From Gammaproteobacteria bacterium (lineage in GTDB: Bacteria; Pseudomonadota; Gammaproteobacteria; SZUA-152): a stretch of 64,000 nt of DNA. The DNA is taken from positions 9,141-73,140 of the forward strand of contig JAKIUF010000007.1 in NCBI GenBank assembly GCA_021647705.1, read 5' to 3'. The position numbers were made by a program. This document shows, in pieces, positions 30,001-36,000 of this stretch (position 1 is the stretch's first letter; each line of letters opens with the position of its first letter).

Positions 30001-33000
30001 GAGCGCGTCAACCTTGTCTACCGTTCCGGTGACAAGAAAACCGGCATGGATGTCGAACTGCCTTTTCGCACACTGGTTCTTGGTGACTTCACCCAATCCG
30101 GGACCTCTGAAATCTTTGATGGACAGACGCCTATTTCTGTTACCACAGACAACATCAATGATGTGATAAAAGGTCTTGGTATTGAGCTGGTGATCAACGT
30201 CCCTGATTGTTTAATGGATGACGAATCATCTGACAATTTAACCATCACATTGCCCCTCACAGCGATTAGCGATTTCAGCCCGCAAACAATTGTTGGCAAC
30301 GTCCCCTGTTTGGCGAAACTGGCGGCGTTGAGAAAACAGTTATTGTCGATACTGGAAGGTGATCTGGAAGGTAAGAAAGCCACCGGGCCTGACACCCTGA
30401 TGCAAAGTGATGAAGACGTTGCCGCCTTTGTTCAGCGCTATGCGCTCGATGACCAGCTCAGTCAATCGTCCCTGAGCATTCTGGTCACCGAAATTGATGA
30501 ACGTCTCAGCCGTCAGATGGACACTATTCTTCATCACAAACAATTTGAGACAATGGAGTCTGTCTGGCGGGCGCTGTATTTTCTGCTCGAACGAACGCCC
30601 TTCGAAGAAAATTGTACGGTTGAAATTCTGAATATCAGCAAACAGGCTCTGCTTGAGAACTTTGAGGACGTACCTGAAACAATCCAGTCAGAACTTTATA
30701 ATATTGTTTACAGTGCCGAGTTCGGCCAGTTCGGTGGTCGCCCCTTTAGTGTCATCATCGGCAATTATGACTTTGGCCCATCCGCACCGGACATGCGCCT
30801 GCTTCAACAAATTGCGGCTGTGAGCAGTATCTCCCATGCGCCCTTTATTGCGGCAGCTTCTCCCGACTTTTTTGATATCGACAATTTCTCCGGGCTGACC
30901 CGGATTCGCGACCTGAGTGCCATCTATGAACAACCCCGCTTTGCCAAATGGTGTTCATTTCGGGAATCAGAAGATGCGCGTTACATCGGACTGACGTTAC
31001 CCGGCTTTTTATTACGGACACCCTGGGAGTCCGATGTTGATGGTGCATTTAATTATCAGGAACGCTACCACAAAAATCAGGTGGGGGGTCTGTGGGGAAA
31101 TTGCGCGTTTGCGTTCGCGACACGACTGCTCGACAGTTTTTCCCAATACCGATGGTGCCTGAATATCAGTGGTGCGGAAGATGGAAAAGTAGCGGGTTTG
31201 CACATGACCAGCAAAACAAACAGCCATCGTTCAATAATACCTGCCCGTGTATTGATCTCTGACCGACGTGAATCAGAACTCGTTAAACACGGGTTTATTC
31301 CACTCAGTGTGCGTAAGGGAAGCGATACGGCCGCCTTTTATTCCGCCCAGTCGGTACAATCCGTCAAAGTATTTGCTGATACAGAAGAAGGGCGGGCTGC
31401 GACCCTCAATCACTTGTTGGGAGCACAATTCCCCTACCTGTTTATCGTTTCCCGACTGTCACACTATTTGAAAATGATGCAACGAGAAAATATTGGCGGC
31501 TGGAAAACACGACTCGATATCGATAAAGAACTCAACAACTGGCTGCGCCAATATGTATCCGACATGGATAACCCGACCCCGGCAGTGCGTGCTCGTCGCC
31601 CGTTACGCAAGGCACAGGTTAAAATTCGTGAAGTGGAAGGTAAAAACGGCTGGTATTTAATCAAACTGGTCGTTGTGCCCCACCTAAAATATATGGGTGA
31701 GTCCTTCTCGTTAAACGAGACAGGCAAACTTGACCTTGCCTAAACAGCCTTGAGAGGAAATAAAAATGCCATTACCCGGAAACATAACCATCATCGGCGA
31801 AGAACAGGGCCAGATCGAAGGCTCTTGCGATACTGATGGACGAGAAGGAACGATACAGGTTCTGCGTTTTGACCATAGCGTGGAAATCCCCACCAGCGCC
31901 GATGGCATTACTGCGGGGCGTCGGGTTCACCGCCCTTTTACCATCAGCAAGGAAACTGATAAAAGCACGCCCATGTTATTCCAGGCGCTGTGTACCGGCG
32001 AGCTGTTAAGCGAGGTGATACTGAATTGGTACCGTATCGATGGCACCGGAGAGCAGGAACTCTACTACACGATCAAGCTTTACAATGCGCTGATCAGCAA
32101 AGTACGCCCCTGGGTGCCTGACATACTCGACCAGAGCAAAAGCGCTTATCGACACATGGAAGATGTTTCTTTTACCTATGAAAAAATAATCTGGACATGG
32201 GAACCCGACGGCATCGAATACGAAGATGCCTGGGGTGAGATGGTATAAGCCGACACATGTCTAACGAACGCCTCCTGAAACGCATCAAGCAATGGAATAT
32301 GCGCCAGGTTCCGGCTGCGGACCACAATGTGTATATTGAGTCGGTTCTGGCTGACCTGTCCATGCTGTACAACACGCAACATGGAACCGCGCTGATAGAC
32401 AACGCTTATGGTTTACCGGACTTTACCAATATTTTTAACAACCTGACGCCACCGGATATCGACATGATGCAACGCGCCATCATGGACACAACGAATCGTT
32501 TTGAACCCAGACTTAAATCGGTCACCGTAAACCATGAAGACCGAAAAAATGAATTTGGATTATTGAGATTTACCGTATCCGCCCAACTGATGTACCTGGA
32601 TGGATTGTCCCCCCTGAACTACAGCGTATTACTCAATGGCGATGGCAGTGTCGCCATCGAGGTTAAATAAGGGTCACAATGAGCACGGACTATTACAAAA
32701 TAACCAATGTAGGGTGGAGCAAGCGTAGCGGTTCCGCCCTACGACTGAACTACAGCGTATTGCTCAATGGTAATGGCAGTGTCACCATCAAAGTTAAATA
32801 AAGGTCACAATAAGCACAGAATATTACAAAATAACCAATGTAGGGTGGGCATGTTTTTTTGCCCACGCGGATGCAGAGTTACCGCGTGGGCACAAACTAC
32901 GTGCCCACCCTACGGCTGAAAACACCGTCATTCCGGCATGTTTTTAGCCGGAATCCAGGGGCTTAAACCCCCGAACACTCGTACCGGTGCATTGGGAAGT

Positions 33001-36000
33001 TATGTTACAGAAGTACCGACAAGCTGGCGTGTTATAAACGCAGAGGTCGCAGAGATGCAAAGAACACAGAGGAAAACACGAAAAATGCTGCGTCCCTGTA
33101 ACCTCAATGGCAATGGCAACGTTGCCAGCGCGGTTAAATAAAAAGATCACAATGAGCACGAACTATTACAAAATAACGAATGTAGGGTGGAGCAAGCGTA
33201 GCGGTTCCGCCAAACGGAAATTGGTGGAACCGCTACGCTTGTTCCACCCTACGACTGAACTGCAACGTATTGCTCAATGGTGATGGCAATGTCGCCATCG
33301 AGGTTAAATAAAAGGTCACAATGAGCACAGAATATTACAAAAAAGCCTTAACCGGGTTACGTGAAGAGGCCGCCGTATTTGCGCGAGCAAACCCTGCGCT
33401 CGCCCCCCATTTGGCTGGCCCCAGTCCTGACCCGGATGTTGAACGCCTGCTCGAAGGTGTTGCCTATCTCACCGGTAATATCCATCAAAAGCTGGATGAG
33501 GATTTTCCCGAGTTTGCCCAGGGAATAATGCAGCTGGCTTTTCCCCATTACCTCAGGCCCCTGCCCTCGGCAACCATTATTCAGTTTACGCCGAAAAATA
33601 TTTTAAAGGGCAAGCTGACCATACCCGCTGGCACCTGCATTGACTCCATTGCCGTGGAAGGCAGCAAATGCCGTTTTCGTACCTGTTTTGAAGTAGAAGC
33701 CCTGCCGCTTTCCATTACGGATGCAACGCTTGTTGATTCTGGCAGCAGCCGTAAACGTATCGAAATCAGTTTCAACCTGTCAGGCGTCAGTGTCAGCGAA
33801 TGGACCTCGGACAAACTGCGTTTCCATATCCACGGTGAGTTTTCTGGCGCAAGCAATCTTTTTATGGCCTTGCAACATTACCTGGACAAGGTATTCATCG
33901 AAACCCCGTCAGGACGATATGACATTGAACCCGACCAGTTGGCACCAGCGGGAATGTCAGCAGAAGAAGGGCTTGTCCCCTACCCCGGCAACTCGTTCCC
34001 GGCCTATCGCCTGATACAGGAATATTATCTGTTAAAAGAAAAGTTTCTGTTCTTCGACCTGCATGGCATCAATGAGTGGAAAAAGAAACTGGGCAATGGA
34101 CAATTCAAACTCGTTTTTGAATGCAGGGATATGCCGTTTATCTTGCCACGCATTACCCGTGACTGGTTCGTATTGCATGCCACACCGGCCATCAATCTCT
34201 TTGAACACGAAGCAGAGCCCGCAGCCATCACCCATCGACAAAGTGAAGTTCAAATTCGTCCCTCTCGCTCAAAGGGCGAAAATACTCAGGTCTATGAAAT
34301 CAAATCGGTCACCGGCCATAACCGTAAACAGGCCAGAACAACAGACTATAAACCGTTGGGAATGTTTGATCCTGCTGAACAGTCAGCACCGGTCTATCAA
34401 ACCACTTTCCGGCCCTCCGAATCCGGCAGGATCAACGAACCGTATCTGACGATCAGCTACCCGGAAGATTATGACATCCCGGACCAGGAAACCATTATCG
34501 CCCAACTGACGTGCAGCAACGGCAGCCTTCCGGCAGGCCTGCGCCCGGGAGATATTTGCAAGGCAACCAGTTCCACATCCGAACTTGTCGAATTCAAAAA
34601 CATCACCCCGGCCACAGACTGTTATCAAATGCCAACCGGTAAAAATGTGTTATGGCGTTTGCTGTCACATCTGTCCCTGAATTTTCTGTCACTTGCGGAT
34701 ACCGAAAACCTGAAGGCATTATTAACCCTCTACATATTTGGTGGCGGCAAAAATCGTAATGAAGAAATGGCAGACCGGCGTCGTATCGACAGCATTTCCG
34801 GCCTGACAGTCACCACGGAAGACCGCTTTGTTTCCGGTCTGATTATGCGTGGCCAGGCCATCAATATAACGGCAAAGCTGGATCATTTCGCCTGCCACGG
34901 TGATTTTTACCTGTTCGGTACCCTGCTCAATCAACTGTTAGCCAGTTTTTCCACGATTAACTGCTACACACGCCTGATACTGAAAGATGAAGCCAGCGGC
35001 GAAGAATTTACCTGGCCAGCCATGCTGGGAGGCCGTCCATTAACATAAAAGACGACATTCTGGAGAACGCACCAGAATACGATTTTTACCAGGCCGTACG
35101 TCTGCTCAAGCGTATCCAGCAGGAAAGCAAGGGACGGCGAACACCCACGCTAAAAATTCGCCCGGAACTCAGTCTGGATTTTCCAGATGCGGATATTTCA
35201 CAGATTGAAGAACGGGATAAAAACCGTGGTTTTAATTTAACCACTACGTTCATGGGCTTGTACGGCGTCTCCTCACCGTTACCCGCCTTCATTACCGAAG
35301 ACCTGCTGGACGAAGAATGGGACGAGCAAGACAGCCAGCGTGGATTTCTGGATATCTTCCACCATCAACTTTTTCCCCTGCTCTATCAGGCCTGGTATAA
35401 ATACCGGTTCAGCCACAATGTGGTAGAAGCCAAAAACGAGGCTTACTGGCAGATCATCTTCAGCCTGTTTGGTCTCGGCTCGGAAGAATTTCTTGAGAGT
35501 GTCGACAATCCCTATGTTTTAATGCGCTATGCCGGGATTCTGATGCAACAACCCAAATCACCGGCAGGTCTGGAAACCATCCTTCGGGACTATCTGGGCA
35601 ATACCAGCATCAGCATCATTCCCTGTGTGCGTCGCACCGTAGCAATCAGCAAAGACCAACAACTACACCTCGGTATGCAAGCAAACACACTGGGCAAAGA
35701 CACCATGCTGGGCAGTGAAATTGATGATGCAAGCGGCAAATTTACCATCGCCATTGGCCCTGTGGATGAAACAACATTCCACACCTGTTTCAGTCATCCA
35801 GACACCATGGCTTTCATCCGGCAATTAAGCCATTTTTATCTTTCACTGCCACTGGATACCGACATCAAACTGATCATCGAAAAGAACAATGCAAAATCAC
35901 CCATGCTCGGTGGTGAACAATGGACATCCCTGGGACAAACAACATGGCTGCTGGCAGACAGCAATCCGGACACGCTTGAGGTTTCCCTGCCTCTCGATCA

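What the first reader, a model, noticed from the sequence alone, without database searches (positions are those of the whole stretch)
32616..33347. tssE/tssF junction duplicated four times between REP elements, creating decoy start sites and chimeric mini-ORFs
Each copy of the ~95-bp unit contains the last ~15 tssE codons (LNYSVLLNGDGSVAIEVK*), the tssF ribosome-binding context (ggtcacaATG) and the first tssF codons (MST(D/N/E)YYK). A REP or MITE follows each copy. Copy 1 (ATG 32679) encodes the 40-aa peptide MSTDYYKITNVGWSKRSGSALRLNYSVLLNGNGSVTIKVK*. It reads through a REP and re-enters the TssE C-terminal frame of copy 2. Copy 2 has ATG mutated to ATA. Copy 3 (ATG 33152) encodes a 43-aa peptide ending at TGA 33281-33283. 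The true tssF start is copy 4 (33321). The copies are about 10% diverged, so they are not recent. The same unit-REP-unit arrangement with a ~52-bp duplicated flank occurs in the tssC-hcp1 spacer (22818-22977). REP mobilisation by RAYT/IS200-type transposases normally produces no long target duplication, so the mechanism is unclear. It may be unequal recombination between REPs. The array lengthens the tssE-tssF spacer to 650 nt inside an operon. It provides ribosome-loading decoys and several hairpins that could attenuate or uncouple tssFG-vgrG expression.
Basis: seen in the sequence. Interest (0 to 1): 0.7.

Follow-up and report, generated by a model that had tools for sequence, protein, structure and literature searches.

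The report
REPIN cluster duplicating tssE–tssF junction
A short palindromic mobile element (REPIN) has been repeated in tandem with about 90 bp of its surroundings, which here are the end of one type VI secretion gene and the start of the next; this is a known kind of REPIN cluster, it evolves neutrally, and nothing suggests it is a regulatory device.

Summary
Window 32614-33341 holds four copies (one of them 5'-truncated) of the native tssE-3'end/spacer/tssF-5' unit. They are separated by three GTAG…CTAC REP/REPIN hairpins and a fragment of a second MITE. The first copy completes tssE and the last starts tssF.

- **Ancestral state:** related species all have a compact 5-9 nt junction.
- **Alleles:** strains with the same or 99 % identical TssE show at least four: compact, the window type, L140 (full-length first REPIN) and L159 (rearranged).
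- **Age:** copies differ by 3-20 %, against about 3-7 % third-codon-position divergence between strains, so the array predates the strain split. The compact allele of L001 probably arose by recombination between copies.
- **No sign of selection:** the inner array diverges at the third-codon-position rate. The mini-ORFs and decoy ATGs are not conserved. No promoter or terminator consensus was found. tssF/G/vgrG stay under purifying selection.

Tandem REPIN arrays "including the flanking sequences" are already described (Bertels & Rainey 2011; Di Nocera 2013; Nunvar 2010). This is a new member of a known kind, most likely a tolerated by-product of REPIN dynamics. How the first unit–REPIN–unit arose in one step is unresolved.

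The parts
32257..32670 (+). tssE (gp25-like baseplate gene); its last 18 codons and stop lie inside unit U1
   Evidence: ORF; Pfam GPW_gp25 E 6e-15; an identical protein is found in 14 public contigs
32614..32700 (+). U1: live tssE 3' end, followed by a decaying copy of the spacer and tssF codons 1-7
   Evidence: The tssE part is identical to the compact allele L001. The tssF part keeps the outgroup state ACG and the 8-nt spacer
32701..32708 (+). 8-nt filler TAACCAAT between unit and REPIN; it recurs after U2, and after U3 as TAACGAAT
32709..32742 (.). E1: collapsed REPIN (34 nt); the full 71-nt form is present in strain L140
   Evidence: Window/L140 alignment shows a 37-nt internal deletion; RNA hairpin -23 kcal/mol
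32745..32831 (+). U2: pseudo-junction (ATG mutated to ATA at 32810)
   Evidence: the L140 orthologue has ATG and looks converted by U1
32840..32913 (.). E2: 74-nt REPIN (REP doublet GTAGGGTGGGCA…TGCCCACCCTAC), same family as 7206-7279 and 55605-55678
   Evidence: RNA hairpin -54.7 kcal/mol, z -7.9
32914..33102 (-). Fragment of a second MITE, truncated against U3, with its terminal hairpin ATTCCGGC-N9-GCCGGAAT next to E2
   Evidence: Matches 3531-3680 and 56833-57055
33103..33173 (+). U3: oldest and 5'-truncated pseudo-junction (80-87 % identical to the other copies)
33182..33252 (.). E3: 71-nt GTAG-headed perfect hairpin (32-bp stem), same family as E1
   Evidence: RNA hairpin -65.7 kcal/mol, z -13.7
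33255..33341 (+). U4: decayed tssE tail followed by the live spacer, RBS context and start of tssF
   Evidence: The tssF part is identical to the compact allele L001
33321..35048 (+). tssF
   Evidence: Pfam T6SS_TssF E 3e-138. Between the two array-bearing strains, codon positions 1 and 2 are 99.7-99.8 % identical and position 3 is 96.2 %
22822..22973 (+). Second, smaller example in the tssC-hcp1 spacer: 49-nt direct repeat (22822-22870 and 22925-22973), a 22-nt filler, and the collapsed REPIN 22893-22925
   Evidence: other strains carry the 74-nt REPIN here or lack the whole block
7206..7279 (.). Solitary REPIN of the E2 family with no flank duplication (comparison case)
55605..55678 (.). Solitary REPIN of the E2 family with no flank duplication (comparison case)

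Best explanation
This is an ordered REPIN cluster: a tandem array in which a GTAG-headed REP/REPIN hairpin has been reiterated together with about 90 bp of the DNA it landed in. That DNA happens to be the compact tssE-stop/RBS/tssF-start junction of a type VI secretion operon.

**Steps shown**
1. The ancestral junction was 5-9 nt long.
2. In one sub-lineage the junction became unit–REPIN–unit…unit. The outermost copies stay contiguous with tssE and tssF, so both genes remain intact.
3. The inner copies are pseudo-junctions that drift at the neutral rate and are occasionally homogenised by gene conversion.
4. REPINs collapse by internal deletion. A second MITE inserted and was partly deleted.
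5. The array is polymorphic between strains.

**Steps inferred**
1. The founding event was a single duplicative insertion, in which REPIN arrival was coupled to re-copying of about 90 nt of target and left short fillers. The most likely routes are a replication template switch or RAYT-mediated joining to a nascent strand.
2. Modules were then gained and lost by unequal homologous recombination between units. This includes a complete collapse back to the compact junction in L001-type strains.
3. The array is a tolerated, near-neutral by-product. Its very stable RNA hairpins may incidentally alter mRNA stability or the coupling between tssE and tssF, but no feature shows selection for that.
For: **Anatomy.** Four units, three REPINs and the fillers are described.

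**Ancestry and variation.**
- Compact junctions occur in all relatives with 85-91 % identical TssE.
- Compact junctions also occur in L001, L004, L005 and L008, which have an identical TssE.
- An orthologous four-unit array with a full-length E1 is present in L140.
- A rearranged array is present in L159.

**Neutral evolution.**
- The inner array is 94.2 % identical between the window and L140, against 93-96 % at third codon positions.
- Mini-ORFs differ between strains.
- Substitutions are mostly transitions, not adenine-specific.

**Gene conversion.** L140 U2 is 96.6 % identical to L140 U1 but only 88.5 % to window U2.

**Reversion of L001.**
- L001 shares the derived ACA codon and the 9-nt spacer with U4. 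U1 and U3 keep the outgroup states, ACG in both and the 8-nt spacer in U1.
- L001 is no more distant from the window than array-bearing L140 is.

**Downstream genes stay functional.** Codon positions 1 and 2 are 98-100 % identical, against 93-96 % at position 3, between the array-bearing strains.

**The same REP family behaves this way elsewhere.**
- Flank plus REP reiteration is seen in L038 next to a bona fide RAYT (NF047646, E 3e-58; PDB 4ER8, E 1e-47), and in L051, L065 and L122.

**Literature.**
[quoted passage not shown] - PMC2817692: 3' termini of rayt genes captured between REPs in BIMEs, and a rolling-circle model.
Against: - The founding step is not explained by any demonstrated RAYT activity, because IS200/IS605-type Y1 transposition gives no target duplication.
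- The three REPINs of the array belong to two sequence families that share only the 9-nt termini, yet they sit between the same fillers. This needs an extra in-situ replacement step.
- No RAYT gene lies in the window. The organism's genome could not be surveyed, so the share of its REPINs that carry flank duplications is unknown.
- The neutrality argument rests on two array-bearing strains and about 640 aligned sites.
- The revertant inference for L001 rests on two characters, one of them a homopolymer length.
- No expression data exist, so a regulatory effect cannot be excluded.
Confidence: 0.75

Rival explanations
1. The array is a selected regulatory device. Decoy RBS/ATG sites, mini-ORFs that read through the hairpins, and REPIN stem-loops would together attenuate or uncouple expression of tssF-tssG-vgrG from the upstream genes, or stabilise the upstream mRNA.
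For: - The RNA hairpins are very stable, at -55 and -66 kcal/mol.
- The array has persisted longer than the split between strains.
- From my own knowledge, not checked here: REP/BIME elements are known to stabilise upstream mRNA and attenuate transcription in E. coli (malE-malF; Espéli 2001).
- In L140 three of the three pseudo-starts are intact.
Against: - The inner array evolves at the third-codon-position rate.
- Mini-ORF products and the start-codon state differ between strains, and the 'chimeric' 40-aa peptide is an accident of a 37-nt deletion.
- No terminator or promoter consensus is present.
- Compact-junction strains of the same species coexist with array strains, and one probably arose by losing the array.
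- Similar arrays of this REP family occur at unrelated loci in other bacteria.
Confidence: 0.1
2. There were two independent events. A spontaneous tandem duplication of the junction came first and created harmless new intergenic space. REPINs later inserted into it by ordinary transposition without target duplication.
For: REPINs prefer extragenic space. A unit–unit duplication would be viable and would offer about 95 nt of non-functional target.
Against: In every case seen, the REP(IN) sits at the join, with the second copy starting 0-4 nt after CTAC. This holds for tssE/F, tssC-hcp1, L038 and L065. By inference, chance placement at the join in each of four cases is very unlikely. No REPIN-free unit–unit allele was found among the alleles recovered.
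Confidence: 0.1
3. This was classical cut-and-paste or replicative transposition by a DDE-type enzyme that makes long staggered cuts, as described for IS1634/IS1549-type elements. The repeated unit would then be a true target-site duplication.
For: The architecture is unit–element–unit. From my own knowledge: some IS4-family elements make direct repeats of tens to hundreds of bp, of variable length.
Against: - The element is a GTAG/CTAC-tagged REP hairpin of a family that flanks a RAYT.
- Fillers of 0-45 nt lie between element and duplication, and duplication lengths are 49, 61-80, 87 and 126 nt.
- Two solitary REPINs of the same family in the window, and about 60 in other genomes, show no duplication.
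Confidence: 0.04
4. The array is a hypervariation or immunity-type locus: either a template/variable repeat pair of a diversity-generating retroelement acting on the TssE C-terminus, or a CRISPR-like array.
For: There are repeated, diverged copies of a gene's 3' end, with repeat units alternating with other sequence.
Against: - Substitutions are mostly transitions at G, A and C, not adenine-specific.
- No reverse transcriptase or cas genes were seen in the T6SS genes flanking the array.
- The 'spacers' are multi-copy REPINs.
- The TssE protein is identical across strains.
- No Rfam match reached its threshold.
Confidence: 0.01

Closest known systems
Ordered REPIN clusters of Pseudomonas fluorescens SBW25 (Bertels & Rainey 2011, PMC3116915, 'REPIN clusters', Fig. 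S7)
   Same: Both are tandem repeats of REPINs 'including the flanking sequences'. The unit is a long 5' flank, then the REPIN, then a short 3' flank, with units separated by short non-repeated DNA. The scale matches too: the largest SBW25 cluster has four REPINs over more than 700 bp. REPINs collapsing into a single palindrome are also noted there.
   Different: Here the co-amplified flank is the overlapping functional ends of two adjacent operon genes, so the outer copies are held by selection while the inner ones decay. The REPINs in this one array belong to two sequence families. Population alleles were recovered: compact, two four-unit forms and a rearranged form. This is a different bacterial group and a different REP sequence.
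GTAG-tagged REP clusters (Di Nocera et al. 2013, PMC3733652)
   Same: Both have a GTAG head and CTAC tail with HH dimers. [quoted passage not shown] REP termini abutting or supplying stop codons are also described, as seen in L038.
   Different: That survey gives no junction-level reconstruction, no empty-site comparison and no case of a duplicated gene-gene junction.
BIMEs and the RAYT rolling-circle amplification model (Nunvar et al. 2010, PMC2817692)
   Same: Both are REP arrays with regular modules. The paper reports '3' termini of rayt genes … captured between REPs' in BIMEs. It proposes amplification by RAYT cleavage at REP heads followed by in-trans ligation. L038 shows a gene 3' end captured beside a RAYT.
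   Different: A BIME module has directly repeated REPs with an inverted REP between them and conserved linkers. Here the 'linker' is local coding DNA. The model needs pre-existing REPs on both sides, so it does not explain the founding unit–REPIN–unit event.
REP-mediated tandem chromosomal duplications in Salmonella (Shyamala et al. 1990; own knowledge, not checked here)
   Same: REP sequences act as recombination join-points for tandem duplications.
   Different: Those duplications span kilobases to hundreds of kilobases between pre-existing distant REPs. Here the unit is about 130-170 bp and the REPIN is absent from the ancestral site.

Membership tests
REP / REPIN (GTAG-type, RAYT-associated) | Conserved GTAG head (CTAC on the other arm) followed by a GC-rich imperfect palindrome | tested here: met
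   All elements run from GTAGGGTGG to CCACCCTAC (CCGCCCTAC in the collapsed E1). The hairpins fold at -23 to -66 kcal/mol, with z-scores of -6 to -14.
REP / REPIN (GTAG-type, RAYT-associated) | Two inverted REPs forming one long hairpin (doublet) | tested here: met
   E2, 7206-7279 and 55605-55678 are REP doublets. E3 is a 32-bp-stem palindrome. E1 and 22893-22925 are collapsed derivatives.
REP / REPIN (GTAG-type, RAYT-associated) | Multi-copy, mostly extragenic distribution in the genome | tested here: met
   There are 11 termini (six elements) in 64 kb against 0.3 expected. All lie between ORFs. The whole genome was not available.
REP / REPIN (GTAG-type, RAYT-associated) | Cognate RAYT gene flanked by inverted REPs of the same family | tested here: inconclusive
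   tblastn finds no RAYT in the window. The same REP family does flank a RAYT in another gammaproteobacterium, L038 5490-6029 (NF047646, E 3e-58; PDB 4ER8). The organism's own RAYT could not be searched for.
Ordered (tandem) REPIN cluster including flanking sequence | At least two REPINs in the same register, each preceded by a repeated copy of the same non-REP flank | tested here: met
   Four units and three REPINs, with start-to-start spacings of 131, 342 and 169-170 nt.
Ordered (tandem) REPIN cluster including flanking sequence | The repeated flank is local DNA, present once at the site when the cluster is absent | tested here: met
   Compact single-copy junctions in L001/L004/L005/L008 and in all outgroups.
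Ordered (tandem) REPIN cluster including flanking sequence | REPINs of the cluster nearly identical to each other | tested here: not met
   E1 and E3 belong to one family and E2 to another; they share only the 9-nt termini. This is a departure from the SBW25 description.
BIME | REPs in regularly alternating orientation, separated by conserved linker motifs found at many loci | tested here: not met
   The inter-REPIN segments are copies of the local tssE/tssF junction and are found nowhere else in the window.
Transposon target-site duplication | Duplication of fixed, element-specific length directly abutting both element ends | tested here: not met
   Duplication lengths are 49, 61-80, 87 and 126 nt, with fillers of 0-45 nt on the left and 0-4 nt on the right. 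Most REPINs of the family have none.
Diversity-generating retroelement (TR/VR) | Adenine-specific differences between repeats, with a reverse transcriptase nearby | tested here: not met
   The substitution spectrum is mostly G>A, A>G and C>T transitions. The neighbouring genes are T6SS genes only.
Intrinsic terminator / attenuator | GC-rich stem followed by a U-run, or a conserved leader peptide with alternative structures | tested here: not met
   No terminator-like sites in 32200-33500, against 1.8 expected in shuffles. Mini-ORFs are not conserved.

The most novel reading that the evidence does not exclude
REPINs of this GTAG family can integrate by a duplicative, replication-coupled route. 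One possibility is RAYT joining a REPIN to a nascent 3' end. Another is a template switch through an ectopic REPIN. In either case synthesis restarts 50-130 nt upstream, which creates long, variable 'target duplications' with short fillers.

Such a route would let a REPIN colonise even a zero-length gene junction without killing either gene. It would leave a structure that unequal recombination can later expand, swap or erase precisely. In effect this would be a reversible way of inserting a spacer into an operon, which might also tune the stoichiometry of the T6SS baseplate.
Probability: 0.2. Interest if true: 0.55.

Novelty: new member of a known kind. Interest (0 to 1): 0.3.

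Why it matters
The case is a clean natural experiment on how REPIN clusters form. The ancestral empty site, two diverged orthologous arrays, a rearranged array and a probable precise revertant are all available for one locus. The duplicated flank also has built-in functional markers (a stop codon, an RBS context and a start codon), which show which copies are under selection.

It shows that REPINs can expand inside a tightly coupled operon junction without inactivating the flanking genes. It also shows that the founding event must have duplicated the target. That constrains models of REPIN/RAYT mobility, for which no insertion mechanism has been demonstrated.

For genome annotation it is a warning: such arrays create spurious RBS/ATG contexts and mini-ORFs, and they break short-read assemblies. 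It does not reveal a new regulatory system.

Tried and rejected
1. **Genome-collection scan for the REP doublet.** It was meant to recover the organism's other REPINs. The organism remains unidentified. The closest named relative of its TssE is an Ectothiorhodospiraceae MAG, and the sample names suggest hydrothermal-vent metagenomes. The loci were reused as a cross-genome control.
2. **Literature search for the assembly accessions.** Nothing was found.
3. **DGR-type adenine mutagenesis.** Rejected.
4. **Rfam scan of the region.** Only sub-threshold chance hits were returned (mir-61, potC, LhrA).
5. **Promoter and terminator scan.** No sites were found.
6. **RAYT in the window by tblastn.** None was found.
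7. **The tssC-hcp1 repeat as a duplication of native flank.** Rejected, because the REPIN-free allele lacks any copy of the 49-nt unit, and the unit matches the terminal module of the second MITE.
8. **An ectopic donor for the fillers TAACCAAT and GA.** None was found in the sequence available. This is not decisive, because the genome could not be searched.
9. **L009 as a reduced-copy allele.** It could equally be an assembly collapse between near-identical U1 and U2, so it was not counted. L159 shows a similar U1-to-E2 join in a longer contig.

Full report
**1. What is in the sequence**

tssE (32257-32670; gp25 family) and tssF (33321-35048; TssF family) are separated by 650 nt. This stretch, together with the last 57 nt of tssE and the first 21 nt of tssF, contains four copies of one unit.

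The unit consists of the last about 18 codons of tssE, its stop, an 8-10 nt spacer and the first seven codons of tssF.

| Copy | Coordinates | Note |
|---|---|---|
| U1 | 32614-32700 | carries the live tssE 3' end |
| U2 | 32745-32831 | ATG mutated to ATA at 32810 |
| U3 | 33103-33173 | first 18 nt missing |
| U4 | 33255-33341 | carries the live tssF start |

Identities within the window are 80-91 %.

Each of U1-U3 is followed by the filler TAACCAAT (TAACGAAT after U3) and then by an element that runs exactly from GTAGGGTGG to CC(A/G)CCCTAC. After the element come G(A/G) and the next unit.

- The elements are E1 (32709-32742), E2 (32840-32913) and E3 (33182-33252).
- GTAGGGTGG occurs 11 times in the window against 0.3 expected.
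- The elements fold into very stable hairpins: -23, -55 and -66 kcal/mol, with z-scores of -6 to -14.
- Between E2 and U3 lies a reverse-oriented, truncated copy of a second MITE. Fuller copies are at 3531-3680 and 56833-57055.

**2. The unit is native and the compact junction is ancestral**

Looking up the exact TssE protein in public assemblies returned 14 contigs.

- In L001, L004, L005 and L008, tssF starts 9 nt after the tssE stop and the unit is present once.
- L002 carries the same array as the window.
- Several short-read contigs break inside the array.
- Relatives whose TssE is 85-91 % identical were recovered in six look-ups, giving many contigs from several assemblies. All have a compact 5-9 nt junction with the same conserved sequence.

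The unit is therefore not something the REP element carries around.

**3. Variation and history**

A metagenome scan for the unit found UOFV01000185.1 (L140).

- L140 is a strain about 2-3 % diverged overall, with an orthologous four-unit array.
- Its E1 is a full 71-nt hairpin, so the window's 34-nt E1 is a 37-nt internal deletion.
- U3 and U1 are orthologous between the strains (97 % identity).
- L140's U2 is 96.6 % identical to its own U1 and only 88.5 % to the window's U2, so gene conversion occurs between copies.

A third assembly, L159, shows a rearranged array. A U1/U2 hybrid is joined directly to E2, and an extra U2-like unit with a further REPIN follows E3. This is what unequal crossing-over between units would produce. 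L159 is a MAG, so it should be read with caution.

The age of the array can be estimated from divergence.

- Third-codon-position identity between the window and L001 (compact) is 95-97 %.
- Between the window and L140 (array) it is 93-96 %.
- The units differ from one another by 3-20 %.
- The array therefore predates the split of these three lineages.

Two characters polarised by the outgroups bear on the origin of the compact L001 allele.

- tssF codon 3 is ACG in the outgroups, and in U1 and U3. It is ACA in U4 and in L001.
- The spacer is 8 nt in the closest outgroup (L143) and in U1 and U2. It is 9 nt in U4 and in L001.

Together these link the single L001 junction to U4 after the duplication. 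The compact L001 allele is therefore more likely a precise revertant, formed by recombination between units, than a lineage that never had the array. This is an inference from two sites, held with moderate confidence.

**4. No sign of selection on the array**

- Between the two array-bearing strains, the inner array is 94.2 % identical (37 differences in 637 sites). This is the same as third codon positions in the flanking genes.
- The mini-ORFs are not conserved. The window's 40-aa 'chimeric' peptide exists only because of the E1 deletion. In L140 the same start gives a 43-aa product in another frame, and copy 2 has ATG in L140 but ATA in the window.
- No sigma-70 promoter consensus and no intrinsic-terminator consensus occurs in 32200-33500.
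- Rfam gives nothing above threshold.
- tssF, tssG and vgrG remain under strong purifying selection between the array-bearing strains. Codon positions 1 and 2 are 98-100 % identical, against 93-96 % at position 3. The downstream genes are therefore still used and must be expressed across the array.

The hairpins could still change mRNA stability or break the tssE–tssF translational coupling. REP/BIME effects of this kind are known in E. coli (own knowledge, not checked here). Nothing in the sequence shows that such an effect is selected.

**5. What kind of thing it is**

The elements are GTAG-type REPs/REPINs. The same REP family (GTAGGGTGGGCA…TGCCCACGCGG) is widespread in beta- and gammaproteobacteria. 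In L038 it flanks a bona fide REP-associated tyrosine transposase (NF047646, E 3e-58; PDB 4ER8 TnpA-REP, E 1e-47).

The literature already describes this higher-order arrangement.

[quoted passage not shown] They found 16 clusters in SBW25, the largest with four REPINs over more than 700 bp. The unit was a long 5' flank, a REPIN and a short 3' flank.
- Di Nocera et al. [quoted passage not shown]
- Nunvar et al. 2010 (PMC2817692): 3' termini of rayt genes captured between REPs, and a RAYT rolling-circle amplification model.

My own cross-genome controls agree.

- Of about 66 complete REPINs of this family in other genomes, only one has a strong flank duplication (L038).
- A broader self-comparison of 118 loci adds L051, L065 (Methylomonas aurea) and a 9 × 100-bp REP-plus-linker array in L122.
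- In L038 the duplicated flank is the last 126 nt of an oxidoreductase gene whose stop codon is supplied by the REP head.

**6. The tssC-hcp1 case**

The 49-nt direct repeat around REP 22893-22925 is real.

- Strains lacking the REPIN also lack any copy of the repeat.
- The repeat matches the terminal module of the second MITE.
- Other strains carry the uncollapsed 74-nt REPIN at this site.

It has the same architecture (flank, filler, REPIN, flank), but the duplicated flank is MITE DNA, not a gene junction.

**7. Mechanism: what is shown and what is inferred**

Shown: expansion, conversion, rearrangement and probable collapse by homologous exchange between units; REPIN collapse by internal deletion; and secondary MITE insertion and truncation.

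Not shown: the founding event.

- U1 is contiguous with an intact tssE and U4 with an intact tssF. A tandem duplication of a pre-existing unit–REPIN arrangement therefore cannot generate the array from any ancestor in which both genes worked.
- The REPIN must have arrived together with a duplication of about 90 nt of target, unless the lineage passed through a T6SS-null intermediate.
- The duplication lengths vary: 49, 61-80, 87 and 126 nt.
- Fillers are 0-45 nt on the left and 0-4 nt on the right.
- Most REPINs of the family have no duplication at all.

These features argue against a fixed staggered-cut transposase. They favour a replication-coupled accident: either a template switch through an ectopic REPIN, or joining of REPIN ssDNA to a nascent 3' end with restart upstream. 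This is inference.

A further loose end concerns the REPIN families. E2 and E1/E3 share only their 9-nt termini, yet they occupy the same position between the same fillers. This implies in-situ replacement of one REPIN by another.

**8. Verdict**

The structural interpretation is supported and the functional interpretation is not. The object is a new member of a known kind, an ordered REPIN cluster. Two things make it notable: it sits in a coupled gene junction, and its evolutionary series is unusually complete. Interest is 0.3.

Noticed in passing
window 34991-35252: Homology to TssG of relatives runs in frame from about 35012, 80 codons upstream of the first canonical start (ATG 35252). It overlaps the end of tssF. 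There is no ATG, GTG or TTG anywhere in 34991-35251. Where relatives have ATG (L158) or TTG (L153), the window, L001, L140 and L143 have CTG (35012). tssG may therefore use a non-canonical start or depend on coupling to tssF.
   Followed up: partly
window 20771-23679 and 29974-32248: The T6SS cluster encodes a split TssB (163 aa), TssC (492 aa) and Hcp1. It also encodes a fused 589-aa VipA+VipB-type protein followed by a second Hcp. The arrangement is conserved in all relatives recovered.
   Followed up: no
window 3531-3680, 56833-57055, 32914-33102 (reverse): A second MITE family of about 230 bp. It has a long internal hairpin (AAACGCAGAGGTCGCAGAGACGCAAAGG…) and a terminal hairpin ATTCCGGC-N9-GCCGGAAT. 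Its terminal module is also the 49-nt unit duplicated around the REP in the tssC-hcp1 spacer.
   Followed up: partly
window 22893-22925 and 32709-32742: REPINs collapse into shorter single palindromes by internal deletion. The window has 33 nt where L133 and L139 have a 74-nt REPIN. It has 34 nt where L140 has a 71-nt hairpin.
   Followed up: yes
The hits come from many beta- and gammaproteobacterial genera, including Gallionella, Massilia, Collimonas, Sedimenticola, Methylomonas and Sulfuricella. That is an unusually broad distribution for one REP sequence.
   Followed up: no
L122 1-940: A tandem array of nine 100-bp units at 98-99 % identity. Each unit is one REP plus a 67-nt linker.
   Followed up: no
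L038 5111-6088: A pyridine-nucleotide-disulphide oxidoreductase gene takes its TAG stop codon from the REP head GTAG. Its last 126 nt are duplicated after the REPIN. A RAYT gene (5490-6029, minus strand) flanked by inverted REPs follows directly.
   Followed up: partly
window 2887-3102 and 12871-14911: There are 27-nt tandem repeats ([13 protein letters not shown]) in the C-terminal part of RNase E. There are also 468-555-nt internal repeats in a 2870-aa ORF on the minus strand (8499-17111).
   Followed up: no
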